In this document: piece by piece, positions 23,231 to 51,321 of the stretch
How positions within the stretch are numbered: the first letter of the stretch is position 1
Layout of the letters: each line of letters opens with the position of its first letter
NCBI GenBank assembly: GCA_033813475.1
Contig: JAPXRP010000002.1
Coordinates: forward strand, 1 to 55,915
Length of the DNA stretch: 55,915 nt
From: Candidatus Hydrogenedentota bacterium
Lineage (GTDB): Bacteria; Hydrogenedentota; Hydrogenedentia; Hydrogenedentales; CAITNO01
Direction: 5' to 3'
Notes under the pieces: generated by a model
The model's database searches: none
What the model was told of the DNA's origin: nothing
Seen by the model: the letters and a program-made list of their open reading frames with translations, nothing else
Translations under genes and position numbers: made by a program

Positions 23231-23374
23231 GTTCCCAAGTTTTACTTGGGAACGCACTTGGCAGCGAAGCTCTGCTTCGTGATTCCTGCGGCGCAATGGA
23301 TTGCCTGCGAGAGCCGGAGCGAACGCAAAGCACAGCTTTGCACACAAGCGCGTTCCCAAGTAAAACTTGGGAAC
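23231..23374 (+). repeat. 144-bp composite palindromic REP unit, copy 1
   Basis: Terminal hairpins GTTCCCAAGTtttaACTTGGGAAC (23231-23253) and GTTCCCAAGTaaaaACTTGGGAAC (23352-23374) are reverse complements. The interior holds the hairpins cgaagctctgcttcg and gcaaagcacagctttgc. An extra half-site, gttacttgggaacgagg, lies at about 23387. Confidence 0.85.
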
Positions 23375-23469
23375 GAGGAGGCGGGTGTTACTTGGGAACG
23401 AGGAGGTGTGCGGAAAACGAGGGAGGAGAAGTTTGCCTTTCAAACGAGAGGCTGTTTTATACTCTGGCC

Positions 23470-35544: not shown

Positions 35545-35946
35545 TTGCAGAAGGGTAAACATCTACTGATCGACTGTCGTAATGTGGCCCGCGCCGTTTG
35601 TCTCGATGACAAAGGCATGCTGGACGCGATGGCGCGTGCGGCGGAGCGGGCCGGGGCCACCGTGGTCTCCCAGATCCGGTACAAATTCGGCCAAGACTCC
35701 CCCCCTGGTTTCACCGCCGTCGTCATGCTCGACGAGAGCCATGTCTCCGCGCACACCTACGCGGACCTCGGGCTGATCGCGCTGGACGTCTTCACCTGCG
35801 GCTCCACGGAGCCCAGGAACGTTCTGCGCTACATCCGCGAGGAGCTCAATCTCGGCGATGTCACCATCAAGGAGTGCGGCCGGTTTCTGACGCACGAGGC
35901 GGAAACCGCCCCGGCGTACGAGCCCGAAGCCGTCCTGGTTTCGTGA
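35545..35946 (+). CDS. speH: S-adenosylmethionine decarboxylase proenzyme (small bacterial class 1 type)
   Basis: GKHLLIDC..., self-processing site context VVMLDESHVSAHTYAD, then ALDVFTCG. The only in-frame start is TTG 35545, 8 nt after a GGAGGG SD. Confidence 0.85.
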   Translation: MQKGKHLLIDCRNVARAVCLDDKGMLDAMARAAERAGATVVSQIRYKFGQDSPPGFTAVVMLDESHVSAHTYADLGLIALDVFTCGSTEPRNVLRYIREELNLGDVTIKECGRFLTHEAETAPAYEPEAVLVS

Positions 35947-35974: not shown

Positions 35975-37066
35975 ATGTCCACCCGCAGCCTCCATGACGG
36001 GCGCGAAGACGGCCTTATGCCGTTGGAGAGCCTCGATTTGGCCCGTGTGAATTCCTTCGCCGGGCTGGTGCGCGCCATGGCCAAGACGGCCTTTGGCGGG
36101 CGCCAGCTCGGCGACGCCCTTGACGTGTTTCTCGCCATGGCCCGCGACCCCGGGTGCCGCGTCGTGCTCACCCTGTCCGGCGCCATGACCGTGGCCAAGC
36201 AGGGCCGCATCATCTGCGAGCTCATTGACCGGGGCCTTGTGCACGCCGTCGTGGCCACGGGCGCCCTCATGGCCCACGGCCTCACGGAGTCCATCGGCCT
36301 CACCCACTACGCCATCAACCCGGACGCCGACGACGCGGAGCTCTTCGAGAAGGGGTACAACCGCATCTACGACACCCTGGAGATGGAGTCGAACCTCAAC
36401 GACGTGTGCGAGCTCGTCGCCGGGGTGCTCGCCACCTACCAGCCCGAGGACGGCGTGTGGTCCTCCGGCCGTTTCTGCCGGGCCGTCGGCGAGGAGCTGG
36501 ACCGGCTCGACCAGGGCCCCGGCATCCTCCGCAGCGCGTACCGCGCCGGGGTGCCCGTGTTCATCCCCGCCTTCACGGACAGCGAGATGGGGCTGGACTT
36601 CTCCACCTGGGCCATGTCCGCCGCCCTGCGGGCGAAGGGGCTGCTGGACTCCGGCAAGGCCCTCGACCCCGACGAGGTCTTCGCGGCCATCCCGCCGTAC
36701 AACCCCTTCCTGGACCTCCAGGAATACGCCCGGTTCATCGGGAAGACCGAAACCCTGGGCATCTTCACCGTCGGCGGCGGCGTCCCCCGCAACTGGGCCC
36801 AGCAGGTGGCCCCCTACTACGACATCACCGCCGACCGCCTCGGCATTGAGCTGCCCGAGCCGCGCTTCAAGTACGGCCTGCGCATCTGCCCCGAGCCCGT
36901 GCAGTGGGGCGGCCTCTCCGGCTGCACCTACAGCGAGGGCGTGAGCTGGGGCAAGTTCATCGCCCCCGCCCAGGGCGGCCGCCACGCCGAGGTTCTCAGC
37001 GACGCCACCGTCGTCTGGCCCCTCCTCATGAAGGCCGCCTTCGAGATTCTCGACGGGGAGAAGTGA
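35975..37066 (+). CDS. Deoxyhypusine synthase-like protein (possible homospermidine-synthase-type enzyme)
   Basis: DHS-family pattern: VVLTLSGAMTVAKQGRIICELIDRGLVHAVVATGALMAHGL, IPAFTDSEMG, GGGVPRNW and SWGKF. Confidence 0.85.
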   Translation: MSTRSLHDGREDGLMPLESLDLARVNSFAGLVRAMAKTAFGGRQLGDALDVFLAMARDPGCRVVLTLSGAMTVAKQGRIICELIDRGLVHAVVATGALMAHGLTESIGLTHYAINPDADDAELFEKGYNRIYDTLEMESNLNDVCELVAGVLATYQPEDGVWSSGRFCRAVGEELDRLDQGPGILRSAYRAGVPVFIPAFTDSEMGLDFSTWAMSAALRAKGLLDSGKALDPDEVFAAIPPYNPFLDLQEYARFIGKTETLGIFTVGGGVPRNWAQQVAPYYDITADRLGIELPEPRFKYGLRICPEPVQWGGLSGCTYSEGVSWGKFIAPAQGGRHAEVLSDATVVWPLLMKAAFEILDGEK

Positions 37067-37126
37067 TCCCCACGCGGATCGGCCACACCGACGCGCGCAA
37101 TTCCATGGTTTTTTTCGAAAAGGCGG

Positions 37127-37573
37127 GTGTGGTATCCTCTGGGAATGAAGCCAATCGGGCGGAGTGAGCTTGACATGCGCACACCAGGAAGACGTCGTCC
37201 GGAGCCTCGTGTTCTCTGCAGGGAAATCCCTTCTGGTGTGGACTTGGAGTCTCTCGCCGAGACGGCGACCTATGTCGGCAGTCCTGAGCACAAGACATAC
37301 CCTTCGGAATCAGGGCCTCCATGTTTGCGGCGCGACGCGTCCCGGTGCGCCCCATCCCTTAAAGAAAGAGTCGAGGAAATCCAGGAAACGTTGCGGGAGT
37401 CCATAAAGGATGGCAGGGTGGGTGCACCTTGGTCGAACCGTTTTCCCCAGTATGTGTGGGGATACATTGACGGGGTGTGCTATGAGGCGCGCAGCGTGAA
37501 CTCAGCCAGTGGAACCTACAAAGCATACCCACTTCAGGAAGAGGAAATCCCGAAGGGGGTAAGACAGCCATGA
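37127..37573 (+). CDS. Small hypothetical protein (cassette gene 1)
   Basis: Low-GC ORF. Candidate starts are GTG 37127, ATG 37145 and ATG 37175. Its stop overlaps the next gene's ATG (ATGA). Motifs YVGSPEHKTYP, FPQYVWGYIDGVCYEA and GTYKAYPL. I recognise no HTH, TM helix or signal peptide. Confidence 0.5.
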   Translation: MWYPLGMKPIGRSELDMRTPGRRRPEPRVLCREIPSGVDLESLAETATYVGSPEHKTYPSESGPPCLRRDASRCAPSLKERVEEIQETLRESIKDGRVGAPWSNRFPQYVWGYIDGVCYEARSVNSASGTYKAYPLQEEEIPKGVRQP

Positions 37574-38865
37574 TGCTCTTGGAATATGATTGGGAGCCGG
37601 CCGAAGGGGTCAAGACGCCGGAGTTGCGGGCGACATGGGCGCGCTTGAAGATGGTTGTGGACGGCCACGTTGTGACCCAAGTGTCCGACGCCAGCTCCCG
37701 TTCGGTGCGTCCCATTCTCTATCTTCCGCTTTACCCCCTGGCAGAATGGATTGTCTCGCATTGGTTCGCGCTGTTCTGCGAGAGCGAGGTTCCCGGAAAG
37801 GCCGATCCCCGCGATTTCCGTCGCCGTCACGCTCTTCGGTTTGCGTCAGAGGGCTTCGCCCTTCCTGATCTGGAGATTGTCCCCGAAGGACGAAGCATAC
37901 GCATGGCATGGGAGCCCCTCAGTCTGCCCTCCATGGGGCTTGAGTTCCAGACATCAGGGGAGGCCCGGGTTGGCCGCGATGAGTTGAAGAGCGTATTGTG
38001 CCAGTTTTTGGACACGGTGGTTTGTCGCCTGGAAGCAGATGACGGTGCGCCGAGGACGTTTCTTCAGAGTGAATGGGAGGCGATAAAGGCGCTGGACAGC
38101 GAGGAAGTGGAGTTTTGTGAGGCGGCGGCAAGCCTTGGACTGGACCCATTCTCTCTGGACAAAAGGAGGGAGGAGGAACTTCTCGAAGTGGGGAACAGCG
38201 TTCCAGGGGAACTCCGGGAAGACTTCTTCTCCGCGGCACTTCCCGACAACCTTCGGGCCCACCTCGAGTGGGTTTCCGAGGCGCTGAACAAGGCGGTCCG
38301 GCAGTCCGGCGCGGCAGACGCTCTTCCGGGACTTAGAAGACACGCACAATCGTCCTTTTCTGCCGGATATTCTTCCGCCCCCTGGAATTACGGGTATGAA
38401 TGCGCCCGCAGCCTGCGGAAGTATCTGGGCATCGCCGGGGAATTAATGACGCCCCATGATTTTGAGGAAAAACTGGGCTACGCGTCTGCCGACTGGATTG
38501 TCAACGATGTTGTCAATCTTGACGCCCTGGCTGTGCGCGACTCGGCCTCACAGGCGGCCTCGTTCATCCTTTCAGGACGGTCGGAAACCTCCCGTCGCTT
38601 CGCCTTTGCCCGCGCCCTTTTTGAGTATCTGGAAGGTGACGCGTCCCGTGCGCTGGTCACTCGGGCGGTCACCAACCGTCAGCGGCAGAACCGGGCGTTT
38701 GCCGCTGAGCTTCTGGCACCCGCCGAGTCACTTTCCGGGAGGATGCGGCATGGAACGGTTTCCCATGAACAGATTGACGATCTTGCCGAGGAGTACAAGG
38801 TGTCGCCCTTTGTGATCCGGCATCAAATCGAAAACCACCGCCTTGCCAGGGTTATGCCTGTCTAG
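37570..38865 (+). CDS. Hypothetical protein with C-terminal ImmA/IrrE (COG2856, peptidase M78)-like domain lacking HExxH (cassette gene 2)
   Basis: RRFAFARALFEYL occupies the position of ..F..aHElgHll. NRAFAAELLAPAESL and YKVSPFVIRHQIENHRL match the M78 C-terminal pattern. The N-terminal ~300 aa are unassigned. Confidence 0.6.
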   Translation: MMLLEYDWEPAEGVKTPELRATWARLKMVVDGHVVTQVSDASSRSVRPILYLPLYPLAEWIVSHWFALFCESEVPGKADPRDFRRRHALRFASEGFALPDLEIVPEGRSIRMAWEPLSLPSMGLEFQTSGEARVGRDELKSVLCQFLDTVVCRLEADDGAPRTFLQSEWEAIKALDSEEVEFCEAAASLGLDPFSLDKRREEELLEVGNSVPGELREDFFSAALPDNLRAHLEWVSEALNKAVRQSGAADALPGLRRHAQSSFSAGYSSAPWNYGYECARSLRKYLGIAGELMTPHDFEEKLGYASADWIVNDVVNLDALAVRDSASQAASFILSGRSETSRRFAFARALFEYLEGDASRALVTRAVTNRQRQNRAFAAELLAPAESLSGRMRHGTVSHEQIDDLAEEYKVSPFVIRHQIENHRLARVMPV

Positions 38866-38952
38866 CGCGCCGTTCGGGCAGTCTCGGGAGATGTTCCTGT
38901 TAAGGACACGTTTTCACTGGGGGGGCGGTGTCCGGTATCTTCACGCCGCCCC

Positions 38953-39285
38953 TCAGCCCTCGCCCATCTCCCCGAGCAGGCAGTCCGCGCCGCCCTTGAC
39001 CACCAGGCGGATCTGCTGGCCCTCGATGGCCACCTGGATCGCGTTCAGGTCGAAGGTGTCCGGAAGCACGGCGATGCTCTCAATGTTGTCGCGCGGCACC
39101 AGCACCGGGGCCGCCTGCGCGTCCACCTGGGCGCCGCCGGGCAGGTTGCGCCCCACCATCACGCCCTTGGCCTCCAAAACGATCCACCCCTCGCTCTGGG
39201 TCTTGACCTTGCCGACGTAGGACAGGGCCCGCTGCTCGCGGTAGTGTTTCAGCAGCTTCACGCGCACCATGCGGTCTTTTAGCAT
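38953..39285 (-). CDS. Hypothetical protein (110 aa)
   Basis: Host-like GC. Start at ATG 39285 (MLKDRMVRVKLLKHY...). A GC hairpin at 38921-38952 lies between it and the convergent cassette gene. No family recognised. Confidence 0.45.
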   Translation of the reverse strand: MLKDRMVRVKLLKHYREQRALSYVGKVKTQSEGWIVLEAKGVMVGRNLPGGAQVDAQAAPVLVPRDNIESIAVLPDTFDLNAIQVAIEGQQIRLVVKGGADCLLGEMGEG

Positions 39286-39529
39286 GACTTGTGTCCTCCT
39301 CGTTGTCCGGGCCGGGGGCCCACTTCGAGTATAGCACGGACGGGACACGGACGGGGTGGACAGGGCGGATGGGGCGGGGGCAGACAGCCTGAAGGCACGC
39401 CCGTTTTGGTCCCCCGTCGGATTGCGCGCCCGCCCAAGTCCGGAGTGTCCTGCGTTCACGGGCTGTGCTAGAGTATGCCCGGGCGGCATGGACCGCCTTT
39501 TCGAACCTCCAAGGCAGACCCGGCAAATC

Positions 39530-40564
39530 ATGGATCCACACGGTCAGCACCCACCCCAGACAGCCGGCAAGGGCCGGCGGCTCCGTCTTCCGCCCGTCAG
39601 CGTGACCCTCCCCGCAGTGTCGGTTGGCGCCGTCTTCCTGCTTCTGGAATTGGCGCTCCGGATTCTGGGACCGCATGCAGACAGCCCCTTTGACGGCACC
39701 GTTTACGCGGTGCATGCCCCCCCCGAACTCGTTTCCGCCTTCACTTGGGACGGCGCGGGCGAAAGTCTCGCCCATGTCCGGTCCGAGAACCCGGTGCTCG
39801 TGTACGAGCCCCGCCCGAACACCCGGCTGAACGACTTCATCTCGATCAACTCGCACGGGTTCAGAGATGGTGAGTACCTGACCGAAAAGCCCCGGGATGT
39901 CTACCGGATTTGCGTGATCGGGGACTCCATCACCTTTGGGTGGTGGGACCGGCTGGAGGACACCTATCCCAAGGTTTTGGAGGGCCTTTTGAACCGCCGC
40001 GCCGTGCCGGGAACCCGCTACGAGGTGCTGAACATGGGGGTCGGGGGATACAATGCGGAACAGGAGGCCGAACTCTTCGAGGCCCGTGTTCTGGCCTTTC
40101 AGCCGGACCTGCTTCTGGTGCAATACTGCTACAACGACCACCTGATCGGCCAAGACGCGGGATTGTGGCGGCATTTCACCCGGTCCGGCTCCCATGCCTG
40201 GGACTGGATATCCCTGCGCCTTCTTCAGCTGCGCACGATCGCCTCCGGAGACCTTGTCCGCCGGTCGTACGAACGAATCGCCCGTGTGGCCCGCGAGAAC
40301 CGGGTGCCCGTGGCCGCTGTAATCTTCCACCCCAACGAGCCGGGCCGTTCCAAAATGATCGTCCGCGTTGCGGAGATGTGCGCCGGCCTGGGTTTCACCG
40401 TGGTGGACCTGTGGCCCCTCTGCCGGAGGCAGGGCGAGGAGGAGTTCTTCGCGGACGACATTCATCCGACAACTCTCGGCCACCGTCTCGCCGCCGAAGC
40501 CATACTCCAGCGGCTGGACGAGGCCGGGGTGCTTGGCGGACAGCCCGCCGCGAGTGTGCTATAG
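39530..40564 (+). CDS. SGNH/GDSL-family hydrolase with N-terminal membrane anchor
   Basis: Block I CVIGDSITFG, block II/III GVGGYN, and block V DDIHPTTLGH. TM helix AVSVGAVFLLLELALRIL. The start could also be ATG 39488. Confidence 0.8.
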   Translation: MDPHGQHPPQTAGKGRRLRLPPVSVTLPAVSVGAVFLLLELALRILGPHADSPFDGTVYAVHAPPELVSAFTWDGAGESLAHVRSENPVLVYEPRPNTRLNDFISINSHGFRDGEYLTEKPRDVYRICVIGDSITFGWWDRLEDTYPKVLEGLLNRRAVPGTRYEVLNMGVGGYNAEQEAELFEARVLAFQPDLLLVQYCYNDHLIGQDAGLWRHFTRSGSHAWDWISLRLLQLRTIASGDLVRRSYERIARVARENRVPVAAVIFHPNEPGRSKMIVRVAEMCAGLGFTVVDLWPLCRRQGEEEFFADDIHPTTLGHRLAAEAILQRLDEAGVLGGQPAASVL

Positions 40565-40618
40565 TCTTGCGGGGTGCGGGCTGCGGCGTGTCCGCCCCCA
40601 CACGGGAAGACCGACAAC

Positions 40619-42595
40619 ATGGCGATTTGCCCCCATTGCAGGCATCAGAACCCGCCCGGGGTGAGAATATGCGCCCGGTGCGCCAAGCCGCTGGCCAACG
40701 CGACGAGCGAGGAGGCCACCCGCCTCGCCACGCCGCCGGCCGAGGACATGCAGTTCCGCCGGGGCCAGGTGGTCAACGGCCGCTACACGGTCCTCGACAT
40801 GATCGGCCGGGGGGGGATGGGGTGCATCTACAAGGTCCACGACAACGTCCTGGGGGAGGATGTGGCGCTGAAGACGCTGCTGCCGCAGTTCCTGCGGGAC
40901 AAGATGGTGGTGGAGCGGTTCTTCAACGAGGCGCGGATCGCGCGGAAGCTGGCCCACCCGAACATTGTGCGGGTCCACGACATCGGCAGCGCGGGCAAGG
41001 GCGTCTTCATCTCGATGGAGTATGTGCAGGGCGAGTCCCTGCGCAACATGATCGAGAAGCTGCCGCCGGGCAAGCGGCTCCCCGTGGCCGAGGTGCTCCG
41101 GATCATTGACCAGCTCTGCGTGGCCCTGGAGTACGCCCACCAGTACACGATCCACCGGGACATCAAGCCCGAGAACGTGATGATTGACCGCGACCGGCGC
41201 GTCAAGCTGATGGACTTCGGCATCTCGAAGCTCATGGACAACCCGCGCATGACGGGCACGGCCGTCGTCATGGGCACGCCGTACTACATGTCGCCGGAGC
41301 AGCTCCGCACGAGCCACGACGTGGACGCCCGCGCGGACATCTACAGCGTCGGCGTCGTCCTCTACGAGGTGCTCACGGGCAACATGCCCACCGGCGTGCC
41401 CCGCCCCGCCTCGCAGATGCTCGAGGACATCCCGCCCGCCATGGACGAGATCGTGGCGAAATGCGTGGACCCCAACCCCGACCGCCGCTACCAGAACGCC
41501 GCGGAGCTGCGCGCCGCGCTCCAGCCCGTCATCCAGCTCGTGGCGCAGGGCCGGGACATCACCAAGGTCTCGCGGCGGCAGGCCCGCGGCGGCGGCGCCT
41601 TCCCCTGGCGGAAGGCCGCGGGCTGGACGCTCGCGGCCCTCATCGCCGGGGGCGTCCTGGTCGGCCTTGCCGGGCTGGGGCGCTCATGGGGCGCGGTCCC
41701 GGACGCGGCGCCCGCCGGCCCGGTTTCGGCCGCCGGGGGCCGCCTTGCCGAGGTGTGCGGCCTGATCGCCGGGGTGCGCGCGCGCGTGGAGCCCCTTGCC
41801 GGCGCCTCCGAGGCCAACCGGTCGCTTTTCACCGAGGCCGAGCGGCGGCGCGGCCTGCTGGAGGCCGCCGGGGCCGGCGCCCCCGTGTCCGACGCCGAGG
41901 AGGTGCTCCGGTGCTACCTCGCCCTCGCCCTCGCCCGGGCCGACATGGCTTTCGTGCCCGGCGGCCCCGTCACCGTCGGCGGCGTCCCCGTGGTGGTGCC
42001 GGGCTTCCTCATGGACACCACCGAGGTCACCATGGGGCGCTACGCCAAGTTCGCCGCCGAGATCACCGGCGGATGGCGCGTGCCCCCGGAGGTCCGCGAC
42101 ATGATGCAGGCCTACCCCGACTACCCCATGACCTGGGTCTCCCTCTTCGACGCCCAGGCCTGCGCCGCCCATTTCGGCAAGACCCTCCCCACCCGCGCCC
42201 AGTGGGCGCTGGCCGCCCACGGCGGCAAGGACACCTCGGACATGTACCCCTGGGGCGGCGACTGGCAGTCCGGCGCCTGCAACTGCCAGACCCAGAAGCT
42301 CTCCCCCGTGGCCGCCTTCGACCGCGACCGCTCCTGGTGCGGCATGGCCGACCTCGCCGGCAACGTCAGCGAGTGGACCCTCACCCCCGCCGACCCCGCC
42401 GCCGCCGGCCGCCGTCCCGACTTCGGCGACCTCCTGCTCGTCTGCGGCGGCAATTTCGCCGACGCCCCCGCGCCCCTGCGCGCCGACCGGCAGGTCGCCT
42501 ATGAGACCCGCGCGGCGAACCTCGGCTTCCGCTGCGTCCTCGAAATCGGCGTCGGCGCCGAAGAGGTCGCCGAGATTCTCCGCCGCCTCGGCTGA
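40619..42595 (+). CDS. Ser/Thr protein kinase with N-terminal zinc ribbon, TM segment and C-terminal FGE/SUMF1-type domain
   Basis: Zinc ribbon CPHCRHQNPPGVRICARCAKP. Kinase motifs HRDIKPENVMI, DFGISK and GTPYYMSPE. TM helix WTLAALIAGGVLVGLAGL. C-terminus (TEVTMGRYAKF..., WGGDW..., GNVSEWT, GFRCV) fits the FGE-sulfatase domain. Confidence 0.9.
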   Translation: MAICPHCRHQNPPGVRICARCAKPLANATSEEATRLATPPAEDMQFRRGQVVNGRYTVLDMIGRGGMGCIYKVHDNVLGEDVALKTLLPQFLRDKMVVERFFNEARIARKLAHPNIVRVHDIGSAGKGVFISMEYVQGESLRNMIEKLPPGKRLPVAEVLRIIDQLCVALEYAHQYTIHRDIKPENVMIDRDRRVKLMDFGISKLMDNPRMTGTAVVMGTPYYMSPEQLRTSHDVDARADIYSVGVVLYEVLTGNMPTGVPRPASQMLEDIPPAMDEIVAKCVDPNPDRRYQNAAELRAALQPVIQLVAQGRDITKVSRRQARGGGAFPWRKAAGWTLAALIAGGVLVGLAGLGRSWGAVPDAAPAGPVSAAGGRLAEVCGLIAGVRARVEPLAGASEANRSLFTEAERRRGLLEAAGAGAPVSDAEEVLRCYLALALARADMAFVPGGPVTVGGVPVVVPGFLMDTTEVTMGRYAKFAAEITGGWRVPPEVRDMMQAYPDYPMTWVSLFDAQACAAHFGKTLPTRAQWALAAHGGKDTSDMYPWGGDWQSGACNCQTQKLSPVAAFDRDRSWCGMADLAGNVSEWTLTPADPAAAGRRPDFGDLLLVCGGNFADAPAPLRADRQVAYETRAANLGFRCVLEIGVGAEEVAEILRRLG

Positions 42596-43031
42596 GGGCG
42601 CGCGCCTGTCACACCCATATTCCATGTGGCGCTCGCCAATGAACCCGAAAAGGTTGTTCGCCCGGCACAGGAAGGCCCCAAGTTTTGGGGGCTCCTTGCG
42701 CGTTTCCCCGCGTCTTTTCCCGGATTTGTCGGTGTTCATCGGTGGGTGCTTCTGAAGGAAGGCCGTTCTGCCTGCGTCCTTGGGGGGCGGCTTTGTGAGG
42801 AAACCACCGATGAACGGTGATGAACACCGATGGAGAGCGCGAGAACCCGGGGGCGGGCATTCCGACGCGGCGACCTCTTGCCGGATTGCCTGCGGTAGCA
42901 TGTGACATGGTCTGTCTGGTTCCGGCGTAGCGGGGCGGCGTGTTCCTGTCAATGGAGCCGCAGGGGCCTCCCCTGACCGGAAAGGCGGGGGGGGGCGGGG
43001 ACCGGAACCGGGATGGGTGTTATGGGGCGAA

Positions 43032-43286
43032 CGGGAATTTGCGGCGCACGGCACTCCCCATGAACGGAAAAAGGAACGGCCTGTCTTCTGCCGGGGACAG
43101 CGGCTGAAGACGTTCTACAAGGCCTACGTTGTCCGCTGCGGGGCCATTGTTGTCGAACTGAAGGCTTTGGGAGAGTTGTCTCGAACGGAGGACGCGCAGG
43201 TGATCAATCATCTCAACGCCTCCGGCCTCCACCGCGGGCTTCTCCTCAACCTCGTCACCCCCAGCCTGCAGCACAAGCGGCTTTTG
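43032..43286 (+). pseudogene. GxxExxY-family gene fragment (C-terminal ~85 aa, 5' truncated)
   Basis: REFAAHGTPHERKKERPVFCRGQRLKTFYKAYVVRCGAIVVELKALGELSRTEDAQVINHLNASGLHRGLLLNLVTPSLQHKRLL aligns to the family core (...VELKA...H.AQL.NYLKA.GL..GLL.NF......KR). The GxxExxY N-terminus is missing. No stop codon separates it from antisense read-through into thiL. Confidence 0.55.
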
Positions 43287-43358
43287 TCAGGGCACCGCCA
43301 ACGGCAGTTTCCCTTCTGCCTCTGCGAAAATCTGCGCAATCCGCGGACAAAACGTGTC

Positions 43359-44336
43359 TTACGCGGTGAAGTGGTCGAACCCGAGGTGGGCGGCCTCCTG
43401 GCCGTCGAGGCGGACGCCGCGCCAGCCCTCCTCGACGCGGCCGACGACGGTGAGGGGGACGCCGAATTCGGCGGCAAAGTCGGCGCAGAGGCCGGGGGCC
43501 TCGCGGGGGTCGAGGGCGACGGCAAGCTCGTAGTCCTCCCCGCCGGAGAGGGTGAGGCTTTCGAGGGACTGGCTGATGGCGCTCTCGAACCCGTTGAGCG
43601 CGGGGGCGAGGGGCACGAGGTCGGAGTCCACGTTGACGCCCAGGCCGCTGCGCCGGCCGATGTGGCCGAGGTCCTGCAGGAGCCCGTCGCTCAGGTCTAT
43701 CATGGCGTGCACGGCGGCGTGGCGGGCCATCCAGCGGCCCTCGGCCAGGCGGGGTTCGGGCCGCAGATGGGCCTGGAGCAGCACGGGCGCGTCCACCCCG
43801 TTCACCAGCGCCAGCAGGCCCGCGGCGGACTGCCCGGGGTAGCCCGTGACGGCGACCACGTCGCCGGGGCGCGCGCCGTCCCGGGTGACATGGCGGCCCT
43901 CGGTCACGGCGCCCACCACGGACAGGTCGAGCATCATGCCGGCGGGGGAGCAGGTCATGTCGCCGCCGACGAGGGCGGCGCCGCAGTGCTCCACGGCGGC
44001 GGCGATGCCCGCGCACACGCGGGCCATGTGGTCCGCGTCGCTGTCCCGGGGGCAGGAAATGGTGGCCAGGGCGAAAAGGGCCGAGCCGCCCATGGCGGCG
44101 ATGTCGCTCAGGGCGGCGGCGGCCGCCTTCCAGCCGATGTCCTCCGGCCCGGCCCATTCGCGGCGGAAGTGGACGTTCTCCACAAAGCCGTCGCAGCTCG
44201 CCAGCAGCAGCATGCCGCCCGCGCGCAGGACGGCGCAGTCGTCGCCGGGCCCCAGCACCACGCAGTCCGCCCCCTTGAGGGGCCCGGTGACGCGCTCGAT
44301 GAAATTGAACTCGCCCAGGTCGCAGATGGTGCCCAT
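43359..44336 (-). CDS. thiL: Thiamine-monophosphate kinase
   Basis: GEFNFIERV, GPGDDCAV, DGFVENVHF, and WKAAAAALSDIAAMGG...GGD, which is the ThiL/PurM-fold pattern. Confidence 0.9.
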   Translation of the reverse strand: MGTICDLGEFNFIERVTGPLKGADCVVLGPGDDCAVLRAGGMLLLASCDGFVENVHFRREWAGPEDIGWKAAAAALSDIAAMGGSALFALATISCPRDSDADHMARVCAGIAAAVEHCGAALVGGDMTCSPAGMMLDLSVVGAVTEGRHVTRDGARPGDVVAVTGYPGQSAAGLLALVNGVDAPVLLQAHLRPEPRLAEGRWMARHAAVHAMIDLSDGLLQDLGHIGRRSGLGVNVDSDLVPLAPALNGFESAISQSLESLTLSGGEDYELAVALDPREAPGLCADFAAEFGVPLTVVGRVEEGWRGVRLDGQEAAHLGFDHFTA

Positions 44337-44339
44337 GCC

Positions 44340-45227
44340 TCAGCCCTCCAGTTCGCGCCAGGCCTCCGACAGCCCGCGGACCAGGTCGCCCGCCGTCAGG
44401 GCGCGGGGGGACACCCCACGCACCGCAATGTCGCCCGCCAGCCCGTGGACGTACGCGGCCGCGCAGGCCGCCTCCCACGGGTCCATGCCCTGGGCCAGCA
44501 GCCCGCCGGCCAGGCCCGCCAGCACGTCGCCCGACCCCCCGGAGGCCATCCCCTGGTTCCCCGTCGGGTTCACCGCCGCGCGCCCGTCCGGCGCCGCGAT
44601 CACCGTGCGCCAGCCTTTCAGCACCACCACGGCGTTCCATTTCTCGGCATAGTGCAGCGCCGCCGTCTCCCGCGCCTCCTGGATTTCCGCCGTCGAAAGC
44701 CCCGTCAGGCGCGCCATCTCCCCCGGATGTGGCGTCAGCACCGGCGGCGGCAGCGCCCGCGCGCGGCAGGGCCCGGACAGGGGCCGGTCCCATGCCAGCG
44801 CGTGCAGCGCGTCGGCGTCCACCGCCAGCGGGCCGTCCCAGCCGCGAATGAACCGCCGCGCAAAGGAAATGGTCTTCGGGTGGCGCGAAAGTCCCGGCCC
44901 GATGAGGACCGCGCCGCGGTCCCTGGCCGCCTCCAGCGCGGGGGCTGCGGCCTCGCGGGAAAAGGAGGCGGCCTCCGTGGCGGGAAGCGGCAGCTTCATC
45001 GTCTCCACGAGAACGGCCTCCAGGATGTCCGCGAGAGGTTCGGGCACGCCCAGGGTGACCAGGCCCGCCCCGCTGCGGCAGGCCGCCTCGCAGGCGAGCC
45101 GGGCCGCGCCGGTCATCCCGCGCGACCCCGCCAGCACGAGCAGGTGCCCGAAGACGCCCTTGTGCGCGTCGCGGGGGCGCGGCGGCAGCCCTTTCAGCAC
45201 CTGGGAATGTGTCAGCATGTCCGCCAT
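44340..45227 (-). CDS. nnrD: ADP-dependent NAD(P)H-hydrate dehydratase (YjeF C-terminal type)
   Basis: HKGVFGHLLVLAGSRGMTGAARLA, GPGL, and GGSGDVLAGL. The stop lies 3 nt before the thiL start. Confidence 0.85.
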   Translation of the reverse strand: MADMLTHSQVLKGLPPRPRDAHKGVFGHLLVLAGSRGMTGAARLACEAACRSGAGLVTLGVPEPLADILEAVLVETMKLPLPATEAASFSREAAAPALEAARDRGAVLIGPGLSRHPKTISFARRFIRGWDGPLAVDADALHALAWDRPLSGPCRARALPPPVLTPHPGEMARLTGLSTAEIQEARETAALHYAEKWNAVVVLKGWRTVIAAPDGRAAVNPTGNQGMASGGSGDVLAGLAGGLLAQGMDPWEAACAAAYVHGLAGDIAVRGVSPRALTAGDLVRGLSEAWRELEG

Positions 45228-45401
45228 GATCCGCTCCTGCCTCCATGGTACCGCCGGACGCGCCCCGTGTCAACCGGCGCGGACGGGGAAACGGCCGGGA
45301 CGGCGGGGGTTTTTCACGCTCCAAGTCATTGCGCGGCAGAGCAGAAATGGCATACACTATATTTATTTACATGGCCATTTCCGCCTTTGTTTTCAACCCT
45401 A

Positions 45402-45430
45402 TTGACTTTTTAGAGGCCCTTTTGTAAACT
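45402..45430 (+). promoter_or_regulatory. Sigma-70-type promoter TTGACT-N17-TAAACT overlapping an 8-bp inverted repeat (TTGTAAAC...GTTTACAA)
   Basis: Hexamers at 45402-45407 and 45425-45430. Inverted-repeat arms at 45422-45429 and 45446-45453, directly upstream of integrase ATG 45470. The segment is AT-rich. Confidence 0.5.
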
Positions 45431-45469
45431 ACCCGGGTAATTCTTGTTTACAACCGACAGGGGTCACCG

Positions 45470-46660
45470 ATGGGAAAACACGCGGATTCGATGGGGTGGT
45501 CGCTTCAACTGAGGAGCAAAACTTACTTCGTATACCACCGGTACCACCCACAAGGCAAGCTGGTCGGAAAGACCACCGGGGAGCAGGACAAGGAAAAAGC
45601 CATCGTGAAGGCTCTTGAGATTGTCAAAGAAGCAAGGGCCGAACTGGGTGTTGTGACAGATAACTACTACGTCGCTTATCTTGATGCTGTTGATAGGCGG
45701 AAGAAAGAGGAAGAGCTTCTGCTGGGCAATGAGCTGGACAAGATCAACCCCCGTCTTACCACCCTCTGGAGGCTGGGAGACACCTACCTGCTGGACACGG
45801 GCTGGTTCGTGGACTGGCTCAGAGAGAATAAGCCCTTTTCCGTGCTGTGCAGTTACCGGACCGTCTGGAAGATGTTCGTTGAACAAAACCCCCAATTGGT
45901 CCGGATCAATGAAGTCCGGCCAGAGCACATCCAGAAGGTCTACGATCTCAAGCGGGGCGAAGTCACCCACACCACGATGGTTACGAGCTATTCGTCCTGG
46001 CTCAGGGGTATCTTCAAGCACCTGATCCGGTTGGAATGGTACCACGGGGAAAACCCAGCACCAACCCTCTCCCTTCAGCACAATTTGATCGCACCCAAAG
46101 AACGGCCAAACATCTTGTCGGAGAAGGAATTGGTTCAGTTGCAGGCCGTGTTCGATGAGTTCGGGAACGGGTTCGATCTGGCGTTCACCCTGATGAGGCA
46201 CACCGGGATGCGAAAGGCAGAGGCCGTCAATCTCCTTTGGGAGGAGGTTCATTTGGATGCTAAACCTCACCCGTATCTCCAAATCCAACCGCACGCTGAG
46301 GACAAGGCCCGTGGGGTTGTCAAAAGTACGATCAAGACCCGTAACAGTGTCCGGCTCGTCCCCATCCGACAGGACCTTTTGGACTGCCTGAAGAAGCATC
46401 GCAAGGAATCCGGATACGTGGTTCCCATGGAGAAGTACCGCTGGCTCAGGCATAACTTCATGTTGCCCACCTCTCTGCGAACCAAAATGAAGGCCGCGAA
46501 CCCGAGGTTTCACTTTCACCTGCTCCGCCACACCTTCATCTCCAACGCGTTGATGGCAGGAGTCCCGCCGGTAAAGGTTTCCAAGTGGGTTGGGGATTCC
46601 CTCGGGATGATCCTCAGCACCTACACGCATTGCATCCCCGACTCCGACATCAATTTCTAG
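45470..46660 (+). CDS. Tyrosine-type site-specific recombinase/integrase
   Basis: Catalytic-domain pattern: RHTGMRKAEAVNLLWEEV (Arg I), HLLRHTFISN (His-x-x-Arg) and ...LSTYTHC (Tyr). GC is about 60%. It marks the left edge of the low-GC island. Confidence 0.85.
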   Translation: MGKHADSMGWSLQLRSKTYFVYHRYHPQGKLVGKTTGEQDKEKAIVKALEIVKEARAELGVVTDNYYVAYLDAVDRRKKEEELLLGNELDKINPRLTTLWRLGDTYLLDTGWFVDWLRENKPFSVLCSYRTVWKMFVEQNPQLVRINEVRPEHIQKVYDLKRGEVTHTTMVTSYSSWLRGIFKHLIRLEWYHGENPAPTLSLQHNLIAPKERPNILSEKELVQLQAVFDEFGNGFDLAFTLMRHTGMRKAEAVNLLWEEVHLDAKPHPYLQIQPHAEDKARGVVKSTIKTRNSVRLVPIRQDLLDCLKKHRKESGYVVPMEKYRWLRHNFMLPTSLRTKMKAANPRFHFHLLRHTFISNALMAGVPPVKVSKWVGDSLGMILSTYTHCIPDSDINF

Positions 46661-46970
46661 CCGGCGTCGTCCGGCCATATCTGGCTGTGGCCCCCGAGTG
46701 CCAGCTGTCCTCAAGGCGTCTGTGCGGCTCAGGAGGCCTTTCCCTCGCTGGCATCCGTTAGTTGTACCCTACCGGTGACGGCGTGGCCTGTTGGCCGTCT
46801 GTCAGGCTTTCAGCTGTGCCAGGCTTTGGGGCGTCGGGCTGGGGTTTCGACACGTGACGAAACGACTAGCGCACGGATACGCCGTGCCTGCAACCTGATC
46901 CATGCAGTCAGTCCAGAGACGTCCCCTTGGGCATGCAACGTCGCATGGTCCGTATTTTCAGGGCCCTCAC

Positions 46971-47459
46971 TTATTGTGGTGGGCGGAGCTCCTTCGGGTT
47001 GATGCGGGCGAGAACCGGTTTCTTTGCCAATGTGTGCTCAACCCCACAGTACAATACGGAATCACCAACGCTCTCAAGCGCTTGTTTCCTGTCGATGAAG
47101 CCACACCATTCATCGCCCGGCGCAAGTGTCACCGGAAGGGGGGCGCTAGAATCGGGCTGACGGATAAAGAATCCCCCCCCTGCCGGTTTTCTAAGAAGAC
47201 GGTGTATTCGGCTCTTGAATGGATAGCCAACAAGGGTAGTTACTCTCGCTGGACGGCTTCCTATGTTCACAACTCGGATCTGAATGAGTTGTCTGGGATC
47301 AAGAGCTCTTGTGATGGGATGGATTGCCTGCATGTTGGGGTTCACCGAAACCTCCAGGCGGGGCCCATCCTTCTTCCACTTGATGACGTCCCAGACGATC
47401 GCCGCTGTTCCGGCGATGGCTCCCCACACTGCGATTGCCGTTGTTGCATCCACCTTCAC
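46971..47459 (-). CDS. Membrane-anchored hypothetical protein downstream of hsdR
   Basis: N-terminal TM helix TAIAVWGAIAGTAAIVWDVIKW, then a beta-rich ~130-aa domain (RLEVSVNPN...IQIRVVNIGSRPARV...VTLAPGDEW). The start lies 22 nt after the hsdR stop on the same strand. No family recognised. Confidence 0.55.
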   Translation of the reverse strand: MKVDATTAIAVWGAIAGTAAIVWDVIKWKKDGPRLEVSVNPNMQAIHPITRALDPRQLIQIRVVNIGSRPARVTTLVGYPFKSRIHRLLRKPAGGGFFIRQPDSSAPLPVTLAPGDEWCGFIDRKQALESVGDSVLYCGVEHTLAKKPVLARINPKELRPPQ

Positions 47460-47481
47460 TGCCTCCTCTTCCGTTGTCCGC

Positions 47482-50400: not shown

Positions 50401-50487
50401 CCCCGACCCGGCGGACAACCCGTCCGTCCCCGTCAGGTGGCGCGTGATCAGCGTCTCCAGGCCCTTCTCGGTGATGTCCGTGGTCAT
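47482..50487 (-). CDS. hsdR: Type I restriction enzyme R subunit
   Basis: N-terminal PD-(D/E)xK nuclease motif (DLCLFVNGLPFATFELKN). SF2 helicase motifs HSAGSGKS, IVIDEAHSSQ and FTATP. 1001 aa. AAGGGGA SD precedes ATG 50487. Confidence 0.95.
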   Translation of the reverse strand: MTTDITEKGLETLITRHLTGTDGLSAGSGGAVGDLTAGYASGAGYHAGRPKDYDRAHCLDTAQLFAFLKATQEEAFEKLGLGNYGDPKDVVRLKFLSRMSSEITKRGVIDVLRRGVDHGPQHFTLFYGTPSPGNETAAALHSENRLSVTRQLAYSLDETRRALDLCLFVNGLPFATFELKNSLTKQTVEDAVEQYRRDRDPREPLFAFGRCAVHFAVDDAEVRMCTELKGKASWFLPFNKGWDDGAGNPPNPAGLKTDYLWKDILTPAGLTDILENYAQIVETRDRKTGKKKRVQIFPRYHQLDVVRKALAAVHAHGAGGRYLVQHSAGSGKSNSIAWLAHQLIGVKRGGKEVFDSVIVVTDRRVLDDQIQKTIKQFMQVQATVGHAEHSGDLRKFIEQGKKIIVSTVQKFPFILDEIAGEGGRRFAIVIDEAHSSQGGKTSSAMNQALGGEADGPDPEDVVNAALEKRMAARKMLRNASYFAFTATPKNKTLEMFGEALPPDAEGRVRHRPFHSYTMKQAVQEGFILDVLRHYTPVESYYRLVKKVEDDPEFDTKKAKKKLRRYVESHDHAIRLKAEIMVDHFHDQVLAYGKIGGQARAMVVCSGIERAIQYYHAFQTYLLERKSPYHALVAFSGEHEYGGAKVTESSLNGIPSGDIPEAFQEDPYRFLICADKFQTGYDEPLLHTMYVDKPLSGVKAVQTLSRLNRAHPKKHDVFVLDFQDNAEAVTYAFQDYYRTTLLAEETDPDKLHDLKAALDNAQVYSPEQRDRVVELFLTGAPREELDPLLDACVAVYVERLDEDGQVDFKGKAKTFTRAYDFLASVITYTNREWERLSILLNLLIPKLPAPLEPDGAKGILEAIDMDSYRVEKREVMRIALADEDVEIPPVPVEGGGMKPDPEYDRLSNILKTFNEQFGTLFDDADRVARRIRDDIAPKVAADTVFRNALENTPHTARMAHDQALHRVMQGLLRDDTQVYKQFVENDAFRRAISDMVFAITSA

Positions 50488-51321
50488 GTGTCCCCTTGTG
50501 TTTTCCCGGTAAACCGCGCGCTATCTGCCGTTTCGTTTTCGTCCGCGCCTTGGCGGGTGTTGCCGCCGGACCTCCGCGTTTTTCCGGGTTCACGGCCCGG
50601 TGCGGCGATATGGGCTTTGCTCTTCAAAAAATGAAGTGCTATCCGTCCATCGGCGGGCGTTCCCCGGCGGGAAGACGCCCGCTGCGGGGCTCGCCGAAGG
50701 CGGTTTTGCATACCCTCCTTTGCTTCCGGCCATTCCCCGTGGGGGCGGGGCAAACGACACCGTCCCCCATGGTGGCACAACCCGTTTCCCAATGCAACCG
50801 GGCCGCGGGGGCGTCACGCCGACTTGTCCAGCACTTCGTGAACGCCTGATCGTACGATATGATTCTCCGGTCGTCGGCCCGCCGTGCTCATCGTCGCGCT
50901 TCACGCCCCGCTCCGGTTCTTTCCCGGCGCGCCGATTGGCTAAAACTTCCACAACACCTTCCCAACCGCCCGGAAATTAACTAATCCGTAAGACGTATAT
51001 GCGCAATGGGTTGAGAAAGAAAGACCATAGCAAGGTCAAGATAATATCCATAGACTATGGCGCGTTCAGGGGCGGATTTAACTAAAGACGCTCCAAGCCG
51101 TTCCACCCAGCCTCCCCGGGCCGTTCATGCCGCGTTGCGCTTTTGGCCCACCCCCTTATGAGAGCCTTGGGTTTACGGCCTTTCCTGCAGGCAAAACGAA
51201 GAAAAGCCGCCGACCTAACTGGCCGACGGCTCGCTGGCGCATGATTTGCCGTTGTTACGTGGTCTTGGGCTTCTGGCTGACGGGGGCCTTCGGGTCTCTC
51301 CAAGCCGGAAGGGTCTTGACA

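What the first reader, a model, noticed from the sequence alone, without database searches (positions are those of the whole stretch)
37067..38952. Low-GC two-gene cassette: unknown small protein coupled to a 431-aa protein with an HExxH-less ImmA/IrrE domain
GC drops to about 60% here. Hand counts give 36/60 for 37141-37200 and 37/60 for 37681-37740, against 45/60 for 36541-36600 in the adjacent DHS-like gene. This looks like an insertion between the polyamine genes and a convergent host-like ORF. The two + strand ORFs overlap by ATGA (37570-37573), so they are translationally coupled. The last ~110 aa of the large protein follow the Peptidase_M78 / COG2856 (ImmA/IrrE) pattern: RRFAFARALFEYL ... 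NRAFAAELLAPAESL ... YKVSPFVIRHQIENHRL. However, the metal-binding HExxH position reads R-A-L-F-E, so the domain should be proteolytically inactive. I can name no family for its N-terminal ~300 aa (MMLLEYDWEPAEGVKTPELRATWARLKMVVDG...PLYPLAEWIVSHWFALF). The same holds for the 120-148-aa partner (YVGSPEHKTYP, FPQYVWGYIDGVCYEA, GTYKAYPL; no HTH, no TM helix). Canonical COG2856 proteins pair with an Xre-type HTH repressor as a protease/repressor switch or TA-like module. This pairing differs, so it is a candidate for an uncharacterised toxin-antitoxin or phage-sensing system.
Basis: partly seen in the sequence, partly recalled or inferred. Interest (0 to 1): 0.72.

Follow-up and report, generated by a model that had tools for sequence, protein, structure and literature searches.

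The report
Pseudo-protease toxin–antitoxin-like gene pair
Two overlapping, horizontally acquired genes are always found together across many bacterial phyla and look like an undescribed toxin–antitoxin or defence module: a small basic protein of an unnamed family, and a 431-aa partner whose ImmA/IrrE-type protease domain has lost its zinc site in every relative examined.

Summary
Genes at 37175-37573 (132 aa) and 37570-38865 (431 aa) overlap by ATGA. They lie in a GC trough: 59% against a window mean of 68%, with GC3 of 59-67% against 77-95% in neighbouring genes.

The large protein's C-terminus is a true M78 (ImmA/IrrE/CapP) fold. HExxH is replaced by R-A-L-F-E, and the third zinc ligand most likely by Gln. 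R348, Q371, R375 and E380 are invariant in 191 of 191 relatives, and none has HExxH. Its N-terminus is a PC4/Whirly/CdiI-like ββββα×2 domain.

The small protein has no Pfam or PDB relative. Its α+β model resembles RelE/ParE toxins only weakly.

The pair is obligate. The small gene or its remnant sits directly upstream in about 77 of 80 genomes, from about 20 phyla. The large gene lies directly downstream in 79 of 79 loci seeded on the small gene. No third gene is conserved, the flanking genes vary, and the pair is usually lower in GC than its flanks. I found it on four plasmids and in no phage.

Best reading: a RosmerTA-like toxin–antitoxin or defence module. The acidic pseudo-protease would neutralise the basic small protein by binding rather than cleavage. 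Toxicity, neutralisation and any trigger are untested.

The parts
37000..38900 (.). Low-GC tract that holds the two-gene cassette
   Evidence: GC is 0.57-0.62 here against 0.66-0.72 on both sides. The pair is 59.1% against a window mean of 67.8%, with depressed GC3.
37161..37164 (+). Shine-Dalgarno-like GGAG, 10 nt before the small gene's ATG
   Evidence: Read from the sequence. Supports the start at 37175.
37175..37573 (+). Small partner gene (132 aa, basic). Unnamed family with invariant Y33, G35, S36, E38, H39, K40, G47, R52, A55, C58, P91, Y93, W95, R106, N109, G113, K116. Proposed toxin or effector.
   Evidence: ORF. Family alignments A2 and A3. No Pfam, NCBIfam or PDB sequence match. AF2 model with pLDDT 77: helices followed by a 4-stranded antiparallel sheet. 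Median pI 9.5.
37570..37573 (+). ATGA stop/start overlap (translational coupling)
   Evidence: Across 142 related loci the commonest junction is the same 4-nt overlap (50 loci), and most of the rest overlap by 1-23 nt.
37570..38865 (+). Large partner gene (431 aa, acidic, three domains). Proposed non-catalytic antitoxin or sensor.
   Evidence: ORF. More than 1000 full-length homologues of about 437 aa. AF2 model with pLDDT 95.7 and pTM 0.92. Median pI 5.1 and net charge about -17.
37570..38037 (+). N-terminal domain (aa 1-156), ββββα-ββββα topology, PC4/Whirly/PurA/CdiI-like. Many invariant Trp and acidic residues (W8, E18, T22, R47, E59, W60, W65, E71, H87).
   Evidence: DSSP string of the model. 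Foldseek hit to CdiI 5ffp_A: E=0.025, prob 0.98, TM 0.47 normalised to the target. Weak PURA hits. 5FFP is assigned to the sPC4L superfamily in PMC9424270. Conservation. I infer that the 5ffp hit covers this domain; Foldseek gave no coordinates.
38038..38484 (+). All-helical, strongly acidic middle region (aa 157-305)
   Evidence: DSSP. pI 4.6 and charge -13. No family match.
38485..38862 (+). C-terminal M78 (ImmA/IrrE/CapP)-fold domain without a zinc site (aa 306-431)
   Evidence: Pfam PF06114. hhalign against IrrE, PprI, CapP and 9vzy: 95%, E=2.9e-8. Foldseek: CapP 7t5t at E=3.4e-4 and prob 1.0, plus IrrE and PprI.
38611..38625 (+). R348-A-L-F-E352, at the position of HExxH
   Evidence: Translation. 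hhalign column correspondence. R is present in 191 of 191 relatives, with A/G/S at the catalytic-Glu position and E/D at the second-His position in most.
38680..38721 (+). Q371-x3-R375-A-F-A-A-E380-x3-P384, at the position of the M78 'E-x-x-A-N-x-F-A...LLMP' motif. Q371 sits where the third zinc ligand (Glu) lies.
   Evidence: Translation. In IrrE, PprI, CapP and 9vzy the invariant Glu lies 13 residues before the invariant Pro, as Q371 does before P384. Q371, R375 and E380 are invariant in 191 of 191. hhalign puts a gap here, so Q371=Glu rests on spacing.

Best explanation
This is an autonomous, horizontally mobile two-gene module of the toxin-antitoxin / abortive-defence type. Its closest known relative in logic is the ImmA-domain ('RosmerTA-like') group of systems.

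The first gene encodes a small, basic, highly conserved protein of an unnamed α+β family. I take it to be the toxic effector. The cluster of invariant His/Lys/Arg/Glu/Tyr residues suggests an enzyme, possibly a nuclease acting on RNA.

The second gene is translationally coupled to the first. It encodes an acidic three-domain protein that neutralises the effector by stoichiometric binding, not by proteolysis. Its M78 domain keeps the fold, but every zinc-binding and catalytic position is replaced by an invariant Arg/Glu/Gln set. That domain probably survives as a peptide-binding groove or scaffold.

The N-terminal PC4/Whirly/CdiI-like domain either acts as the immunity-type clamp on the toxin, or senses single-stranded nucleic acid, as IrrE/PprI and CapP do, to trigger release.

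Shown: the gene pair, the coupling, obligate co-occurrence, mobility signatures, the M78 fold and the loss of the metal site. Inferred: which partner is toxic, the mode of neutralisation and the trigger.
For: Obligate pairing in both directions. Overlapping stop/start across the family. Correlated divergence of the two proteins: Pearson r=0.73, and 0 of 500 Mantel permutations reached it.

No third conserved gene. Variable, mostly housekeeping flanks with some transposases. The closest homologue sits in a different context. The distribution is patchy: 329 or more hits among 185,579 species genomes, from about 20 phyla. Two copies occur in one chromosome (L049 and L052). A divergent branch lies on 4 plasmids, one of them between dptH and a patatin gene. 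The pair is lower in GC than its flanks in 64 of 70 genomes, by 4.8 points on average.

M78 fold without a metal site.

The ImmA domain is an established hub antitoxin domain, paired with diverse toxins and toxin-first in 58% of cases (PMC10440598). RosmerTA has a Zn-peptidase antitoxin whose deletion could not be transformed (bioRxiv 10.1101/2022.05.11.491447). COG2856 proteins are strongly linked with RelE and PIN toxins (PMC2701414).

The small protein is basic (median pI 9.5) and the large one acidic (5.1). The small protein is the more conserved: mean pairwise identity 55% against 37%. Both features are usual for toxin versus antitoxin; that generalisation is my own knowledge.

About half of the top 30 Foldseek hits for the small model are RelE/ParE-superfamily toxins, though none is significant. 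The N-terminal domain resembles a CDI immunity protein of the sPC4L fold.
Against: No experiment bears on toxicity, neutralisation or phage defence.

The small protein shows no significant similarity to any toxin. The best Foldseek E-value is about 0.5, with TM 0.23-0.30. hhalign against RelE gives 0.1% probability. No Pfam hit appears in 64 members. The PADLOC NsnC hit is weak and seen in only 2 of 69 members.

The large protein has no recognisable DNA-binding domain, and no excess of inverted repeats lies upstream of the operon. The usual type II autoregulation is therefore not evident.

Gene decay is seen on both sides: small gene truncated or absent in about 11 of 80 loci, large gene frameshifted in about 5 of 79. 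Decay gives no asymmetric clue to which partner is toxic.

Immediate neighbours show no clear excess of defence genes. The pair is absent from viral contigs and phage genomes. Inter-protein covariation gave no signal (Neff about 80).
Confidence: 0.5

Rival explanations
1. Reversed roles. The small first gene is the antitoxin or regulator (the classical antitoxin-first order), and the 431-aa protein is the toxic or effector component. It would act through its conserved N-terminal domain (invariant E18, D40, R47, E59, E71, H87) or through a re-purposed R/E/Q site.
For: Antitoxin-first is the commonest order in type II systems (PMC10440598). COG2856 proteins were originally predicted to be the toxin (PMC2701414). 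The N-terminal domain carries many invariant polar residues. The Arg-rich N-terminus of the small protein could bind nucleic acid.
Against: The only enzyme-like domain of the large protein has lost all catalytic residues. The sPC4L fold is reported there as a toxin-binding or nucleic-acid-binding scaffold, not as a catalyst (PMC9424270). The small protein is basic and better conserved, and the large one acidic and more divergent. The small protein has no HTH, RHH or AbrB match.
Confidence: 0.17
2. A non-proteolytic regulator/anti-regulator switch descended from ImmR/ImmA, DdrO/IrrE or CapH/CapP. The small protein would be a novel DNA- or RNA-binding factor. The large protein would sequester it in response to a signal such as ssDNA, controlling genes elsewhere in the genome.
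For: The gene order (small factor, then M78 protein) matches immR-immA (my own knowledge). IrrE/PprI has been solved in complex with ssDNA (8sln). The N-terminal domain has a fold known for ssDNA/RNA binding.
Against: No conserved neighbouring target gene. Flanks are variable. The patchy, multi-phylum, low-GC distribution is typical of selfish modules rather than regulators of core functions. The small protein has no recognisable DNA-binding fold. No operator-like repeats were found.
Confidence: 0.15
3. The large protein is still a hydrolase using a non-canonical site (Arg/Glu/Gln, or His in the 'RALWH' variants). It processes the small protein, which would be a pro-toxin or substrate.
For: The replacement residues are as strictly conserved as a catalytic site would be: R348, Q371, R375 and E380 in 191 of 191.
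Against: All three metal ligands and the general-base Glu are gone. The residue at the Glu position is Ala, Gly or Ser. No precedent for a metal-free M78 protease turned up in my literature searches.
Confidence: 0.08
4. A housekeeping or niche-specific cellular function unrelated to conflict systems, with the GC dip being a family-specific composition bias.
For: Most immediate neighbours are ordinary metabolic genes. The pair is chromosomal in nearly all cases.
Against: Present in only about 0.2% of species genomes, scattered over about 20 phyla. No conserved context. Also on plasmids. Decayed copies are frequent.
Confidence: 0.05

Closest known systems
RosmerTA (RmrT/RmrA) and the NetFlax 'ImmA/D25' antitoxin hub
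   Same: A two-gene operon in which an ImmA/M78-domain protein partners an otherwise unrelated small toxin. Toxin-first order is common. The modules are mobile and patchily distributed.
   Different: RmrA-type antitoxins carry an intact Zn-peptidase and usually an N-terminal Xre HTH. Here there is no HTH and no HExxH, the M78 domain is C-terminal, and about 300 aa of a different architecture (PC4/CdiI-like domain plus helical region) precede it. PADLOC RmrA models match only at E about 0.01. The small partner matches no known RmrT or any other family.
COG2856-Xre three-component TA systems with RelE or PIN toxins (Makarova, Wolf and Koonin 2009)
   Same: An M78-family protein encoded next to a small toxin. 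The small protein's model has a loosely RelE/ParE-like α+β layout.
   Different: Those systems depend on proteolysis of an Xre repressor/antitoxin. Here there is no Xre component, no catalytic site, and no sequence-level relation of the small protein to RelE.
ImmR/ImmA (ICEBs1), DdrO/IrrE (Deinococcus), CapH/CapP (CBASS)
   Same: The same protease fold. CapP is the best structural match (7t5t, E=3.4e-4), followed by IrrE and PprI. The small-protein-then-M78-protein gene order matches immR-immA (my own knowledge).
   Different: All of these are active zinc proteases that cleave an HTH repressor, and carry a C-terminal GAF-like sensor domain (my own knowledge). This family lacks the zinc site, the HTH partner and the GAF domain, and is not next to CBASS or an integrative element.
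CdiI immunity proteins of the sPC4L (PC4/Whirly/PurA-like) fold, e.g. 5FFP and 4NTQ_B
   Same: The N-terminal domain has the ββββα×2 topology and hits CdiI 5ffp_A at prob 0.98. This fits a toxin-binding role.
   Different: No sequence similarity. Here the fold is fused to a helical region and a dead M78 domain, and the system is intracellular rather than part of a secreted polymorphic toxin locus.

Membership tests
Peptidase_M78 / COG2856 (ImmA/IrrE) | Homology to the family (sequence profile and fold) | tested here: met
   The window protein scores 20.4 bits against the 22-bit cut-off. 72 of 84 homologues match at E<0.01, best 3.5e-8. hhalign against IrrE, PprI, CapP and 9vzy gives 95.2% and E=2.9e-8. 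Foldseek gives CapP at E=3.4e-4 and prob 1.0.
Peptidase_M78 / COG2856 (ImmA/IrrE) | HExxH zinc-binding and catalytic motif | tested here: not met
   It aligns to R348-A-L-F-E352. 0 of 191 relatives have HExxH in the domain, and R is invariant at the first-His position.
Peptidase_M78 / COG2856 (ImmA/IrrE) | Third zinc ligand: a Glu 13 residues before the invariant Pro of the 'E-x-x-A-N-x-F-A..LLMP' motif | tested here: not met
   The Glu is invariant in four solved members. The equivalent position here is Q371, invariant in 191 of 191. hhalign gaps this stretch, so the equivalence rests on spacing.
Peptidase_M78 / COG2856 (ImmA/IrrE) | Xre-type HTH partner, fused or adjacent | tested here: not met
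   No HTH family in either protein. HTH_3 neighbours occur in only 4 of 149 flanking genes.
RosmerTA (RmrT/RmrA) | Match to the RmrA or RmrT models used by defence-system finders | tested here: not met
   PADLOC RmrA gives E=0.0095 and 12.8 bits over 55 residues only. The small protein has no RmrT hit.
RosmerTA (RmrT/RmrA) | Toxicity of one partner, neutralisation by the M78-domain partner, and anti-phage activity | not testable with these tools
   Needs expression and plaque assays.
Type II toxin-antitoxin module (generic) | Two adjacent co-directional, coupled genes that strictly co-occur | tested here: met
   ATGA overlap. The family-wide modal junction is a 4-nt overlap. Co-occurrence holds in both directions. 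Mirror-tree r=0.73.
Type II toxin-antitoxin module (generic) | Patchy distribution, variable context and signs of horizontal transfer | tested here: met
Type II toxin-antitoxin module (generic) | Antitoxin with a DNA-binding domain that autoregulates through an operator | tested here: not met
   No DNA-binding family was detected. There is no excess of inverted repeats upstream: mean best arm 5.7 against 5.4 in shuffles. This is not required of every TA type.
RelE/ParE toxin superfamily (small protein) | Sequence-profile similarity | tested here: not met
   No RelE, ParE, YoeB or HigB Pfam hit in 64 members. hhalign against E. coli and T. thermophilus RelE gives 0.1% probability.
RelE/ParE toxin superfamily (small protein) | Fold similarity | tested here: inconclusive
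   RelE, ParE, HigB and RegB chains make up about half of the top 30 Foldseek hits, but the best E-value is 0.5, prob is 0.18 or less, and TM is 0.23-0.30. The model has pLDDT 77, with a low-confidence loop at residues 39-55.
sPC4L (PC4/Whirly/PurA/CdiI) fold (N-terminal domain) | ββββα-ββββα topology and structural match to a member | tested here: met
   The DSSP order of elements over residues 2-156 fits. 5ffp_A gives E=0.025, prob 0.98 and TM 0.47 normalised to the target. 5FFP is assigned to sPC4L in PMC9424270. The TM score is borderline, and the aligned region is inferred.
CBASS CapH/CapP regulator | Adjacency to CapH and a CBASS operon, with an active protease | tested here: not met
   PADLOC capP matches only weakly (E=2.5e-4 over 37 residues). 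No CBASS or CapH families appear among the neighbours listed. HExxH is absent.

The most novel reading that the evidence does not exclude
A widespread, undescribed immune or stress module built on a pseudo-protease. The PC4/Whirly-like N-terminal domain of the large protein would sense single-stranded nucleic acid (phage replication intermediates or DNA damage), as the active relatives IrrE/PprI and CapP do. Instead of cleaving a repressor, the dead M78 groove would then release a bound toxin of a new fold and activity. This would be a case of a protease-based switch evolving into a purely allosteric sequestration switch.
Probability: 0.2. Interest if true: 0.8.

Novelty: new variant of a known kind. 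Interest (0 to 1): 0.6.

Why it matters
M78 (ImmA/IrrE/CapP) proteins are known as zinc proteases that flip genetic switches by cutting HTH repressors. They are also a hub antitoxin domain in phage-defence TA systems.

This family has more than 1000 clusters at 90% identity for the large protein. The small protein has 843 representatives at 50% identity. It spans about 20 phyla. It keeps the fold but has replaced the whole metal site with an equally invariant Arg/Glu/Gln set, lost the HTH, and gained a PC4/CdiI-like domain. It is locked to a small protein of a family that no database names and that annotation pipelines often fail to call.

If it is a TA or defence module, it adds both a new effector family and a non-catalytic way of using the M78 scaffold. 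It would also give a clean system for asking how pseudo-enzymes arise inside conflict systems. Cultured carriers exist for experiments: Planotetraspora thailandica NBRC 104271, Actinomycetospora soli SF1, Tistrella mobilis, Massilia sp. H6 and Rhizobium etli IE4771.

Tried and rejected
- **PADLOC NsnC (Menshen) hit for the small protein.** E about 1e-3, but only 2 of 69 family members hit it. Treated as chance.
- **PDB sequence searches** with profiles of the small family, the whole large family and the C-terminal domain. Nothing meaningful.
- **Small model against viral structures (BFVD).** Nothing significant.
- **RelE membership by hhalign.** The protein comparison failed. The local run gave 0.1% probability. 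An earlier local run gave a nonsensical output and was discarded.
- **Inter-protein mutual information** on 107 paired sequences (Neff about 80). The top z of about 4 is what chance gives, so there is no interface call.
- **Pseudogene asymmetry as a clue to the toxin.** Decay occurs in both genes, so it is uninformative.
- **Fusions of the small domain to polymorphic toxins.** None among the best 150 representatives. The long hits P0280 and P0265 are frameshift read-throughs into the large gene.
- **Empty-site test** using the window's deoxyhypusine-synthase-like protein. No other contig encodes it exactly.
- **Operator search upstream of the operon.** No enrichment of inverted repeats. The sigma-70 and terminator scans gave nothing useful near the operon ends.
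- **PD-(D/E)xK, HEPN, RES, ART and Doc-type readings of the small protein's motifs.** Considered and rejected on motif order, predicted fold or the lack of Pfam hits.
- **Literature searches** for an HExxH-less M78 antitoxin or this pair. None found.
Full report
**1. What is in the sequence**

Two + strand ORFs occupy 37127/37175-37573 and 37570-38865.

The small ORF can be read from GTG 37127. Relatives start M-R-A/T-P-x-R-R-R, and a GGAG lies 10 nt before ATG 37175. The product is therefore 132 aa. Its TGA stop overlaps the large gene's ATG as ATGA.

The pair lies in a GC trough. It is 59.1% GC against a window mean of 67.8% (sd 4.4% for windows of the same size). GC3 is 0.59 and 0.67, against 0.77-0.96 in the flanking genes.

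The flanking genes are:
- AdoMet decarboxylase (35545-35946) and a deoxyhypusine-synthase-family gene (35975-37066) upstream;
- an unassigned minus-strand ORF and a GDSL hydrolase downstream.

**2. The large protein**

It belongs to a large, full-length family. More than 1000 clusters at 90% identity, about 437 aa long, match at 38-54% identity over the whole length. Sources call them 'hypothetical' or 'ImmA/IrrE family metallo-endopeptidase'.

An AlphaFold2 model built on 84 homologues is very confident (pLDDT 95.7, pTM 0.92). It shows three parts.

*(i) Residues 1-156* have ββββα-ββββα topology. Foldseek finds the CDI immunity protein CdiI of Burkholderia dolosa (5ffp_A: E=0.025, prob 0.98, TM 0.47 on the target) and, weakly, PURA. 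A published analysis places 5FFP in the sPC4L (PC4/Whirly/PurA) superfamily. It describes that fold as a scaffold both for binding toxins and for binding single-stranded nucleic acid (PMC9424270). That the 5ffp hit covers this domain is my inference from topology, because Foldseek gave no coordinates.

*(ii) Residues 157-305* are all-helical and very acidic (charge -13). They match no family.

*(iii) Residues 306-431* are an M78 domain, on four lines of evidence:
- Pfam PF06114 just under threshold in the window protein (20.4 against 22 bits);
- a match in 72 of 84 homologues;
- CapP (7t5t) as the best structural match at E=3.4e-4, followed by IrrE and PprI;
- a profile-profile alignment to segments of four solved M78 proteins at 95% probability and E=2.9e-8.

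**3. The metal site is gone, family-wide**

hhalign puts H-E-x-x-H opposite R348-A349-L350-F351-E352.

The third ligand in IrrE, PprI, CapP and 9vzy is an invariant Glu 13 residues before the invariant Pro of the '...LLMP' motif. Here the residue 13 before P384 is Q371. hhalign gaps this stretch, so the equivalence rests on spacing.

I tabulated these positions in 191 family sequences:
- R348, Q371, R375 and E380 are present in all 191;
- the catalytic-Glu position is Ala, Gly or Ser in nearly all;
- the second-His position is Glu or Asp in most;
- none has HExxH anywhere in the domain.

A branch at only 24-29% identity, carried on plasmids, reads R-F-V-G-D and R-A-V-G-D.

So this is not a decayed copy. 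It is a stable, selected replacement of a zinc site by a charged or polar network. I infer a non-proteolytic role in binding or as a scaffold.

**4. The small protein**

It has no Pfam, NCBIfam or PDB sequence relative, whether tested singly or as a 64-member family. It is stand-alone: 843 representatives at 50% identity match it, nearly all 120-190 aa long.

It is basic (median pI 9.5), with an Arg-rich N-terminus. It carries a dense set of invariant residues:
- Y33, G35, S36, E38, H39, K40;
- R52, C58;
- P91, Y93, W95;
- R106, N109, G113, K116;
- E104 and Y115 are nearly invariant.

The AF2 model (pLDDT 77) has a helix, a poorly resolved loop that carries the EHK...R-x-D-A-S-x-C motif, a long helix, and a four-stranded antiparallel sheet.

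Foldseek finds nothing significant. About half of the top 30 hits are RelE, ParE, HigB or RegB toxins, at E of 0.5 or worse and TM 0.23-0.30. hhalign against RelE is negative. I therefore call it a new family with, at most, a RelE/ParE-like layout. An enzymatic role, possibly as an RNase, is inference only.

**5. The two genes are an obligate, self-contained, mobile unit**

A scan of one genome per species returned at least 329 relatives of the large protein. The 80 best come from about 20 phyla, including Chloroflexota, Acidobacteriota, Actinomycetota, Planctomycetota, Pseudomonadota, Bacteroidota, Hydrogenedentota, Omnitrophota, Spirochaetota and CPR.

*Co-occurrence.*
- In about 69 of these loci the small gene lies intact immediately upstream.
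- In about 8 more a C-terminal remnant or a frameshifted copy remains.
- In the reverse direction, 79 of 79 metagenomic loci seeded on the small protein, and with room downstream, have the large gene directly downstream.
- The commonest junction is the same 4-nt overlap.
- Pairwise divergences of the two proteins are correlated: r=0.73, and 0 of 500 permutations reached it.

*Context.*
- Clustering all ORFs of the 80 loci finds no third conserved gene.
- The 149 nearest neighbours share no Pfam family in more than 4 loci. They are mostly metabolic genes, with some transposases and a few defence genes.
- The nearest relative (54% identity) sits between a GH127-family gene and a DUF4838 gene.

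*Mobility.*
- In 64 of 70 genomes the pair is lower in GC than its flanks.
- It occurs on four plasmids, once between dptH and a patatin gene.
- It does not occur in viral contigs or phage genomes.

**6. Interpretation**

These are the genomic hallmarks of toxin-antitoxin-type modules.

The ImmA domain is already known as a hub antitoxin domain. It pairs with diverse toxins, often toxin-first, and RosmerTA is the validated defence example. COG2856 proteins have long been linked with RelE and PIN toxins.

Three things lead me to take the small protein as the effector and the large protein as its neutraliser:
- the charge contrast, basic small against acidic large;
- the higher conservation of the small protein;
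- the immunity-protein-like N-terminal domain of the large protein.

Because the protease site is absent, neutralisation should be by binding. The PC4/Whirly-like domain, and the ssDNA binding of the active relatives (PprI-ssDNA, 8sln), suggest a possible nucleic-acid trigger. That step is speculative.

Confidence by level:
- Conserved mobile pair with a dead M78 domain: about 0.95.
- TA or defence-type function with the small protein as toxin: about 0.5.

Rivals: reversed roles, a non-proteolytic regulator switch, a non-canonical hydrolase, and a housekeeping function.

**7. Comparison with known systems**

The module works most like RosmerTA and the COG2856-associated TA systems, but it fails their defining tests:
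- no HExxH;
- no HTH;
- no significant match to the RmrA, RmrT or capP models.

PADLOC and NCBIfam have no model for either protein. My literature searches found no description of it. I rate it a new variant of a known kind.

**8. What did not work**

The following gave nothing usable: the weak NsnC hit, the PDB profile searches, the BFVD search, inter-protein covariation, pseudogene asymmetry, the empty-site search and the operator search.

Noticed in passing
window 43017-55894: A low-GC (55-61%) defence and mobile island lies 4-17 kb downstream of the pair. It holds an ORF with a PDDEXK_3 N-terminus (43017-45413), a tyrosine integrase (45470-46660), type I R-M HsdR (47482-50487) and HsdS (52944-54242), and a GmrSD-type enzyme with DUF5655 (54239-55894).
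   Followed up: partly
window 51322-52929 (-): A 535-aa protein with a cytidine/MafB19-like deaminase domain is wedged between hsdR and hsdS of the type I R-M locus. This is an unusual passenger for that position.
   Followed up: no
window 23296-24006 (+): An IS200/Y1-transposase-like gene in another local GC dip.
   Followed up: no
L081 7605-7994; L165 about 3140-3511; L164 3247-3489: Public annotation often misses or truncates the small partner gene. It is uncalled in the Logan contig, uncalled in RefSeq Tistrella mobilis pTM2, and called as only 80 aa in the Massilia sp. H6 plasmid. This hides the pairing from annotation-based surveys.
   Followed up: yes
L164 (Massilia sp. H6 plasmid NZ_CP103373.1), L165 (Tistrella mobilis pTM2): A divergent branch of the same pair (24-29% identity) lies on plasmids. 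In Massilia it sits between dptH (Dnd restriction) and a patatin-like phospholipase. The HExxH-equivalent reads R-F-V-G-D or R-A-V-G-D.
   Followed up: partly
L049 and L052 (OZ220743.1, Acidimicrobiales MAG): Two copies of the pair about 19 kb apart in one chromosome.
   Followed up: no
P0280 (546 aa), P0265 (316 aa): Apparent small+large 'fusion' proteins in the databases are read-throughs caused by a frameshift near the 3' end of the small gene. They are not natural fusions.
   Followed up: yes
window 38953-39531 (-): The convergent ORF just downstream of the pair has no Pfam or NCBIfam family. Its long form overlaps the start of the GDSL hydrolase ORF (39356-40564), so its real start is probably internal. 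It is not conserved next to the pair elsewhere.
   Followed up: partly
window 40574-42595 (+): A Ser/Thr protein kinase fused to an FGE-sulfatase-like domain, with an N-terminal zinc ribbon.
   Followed up: no
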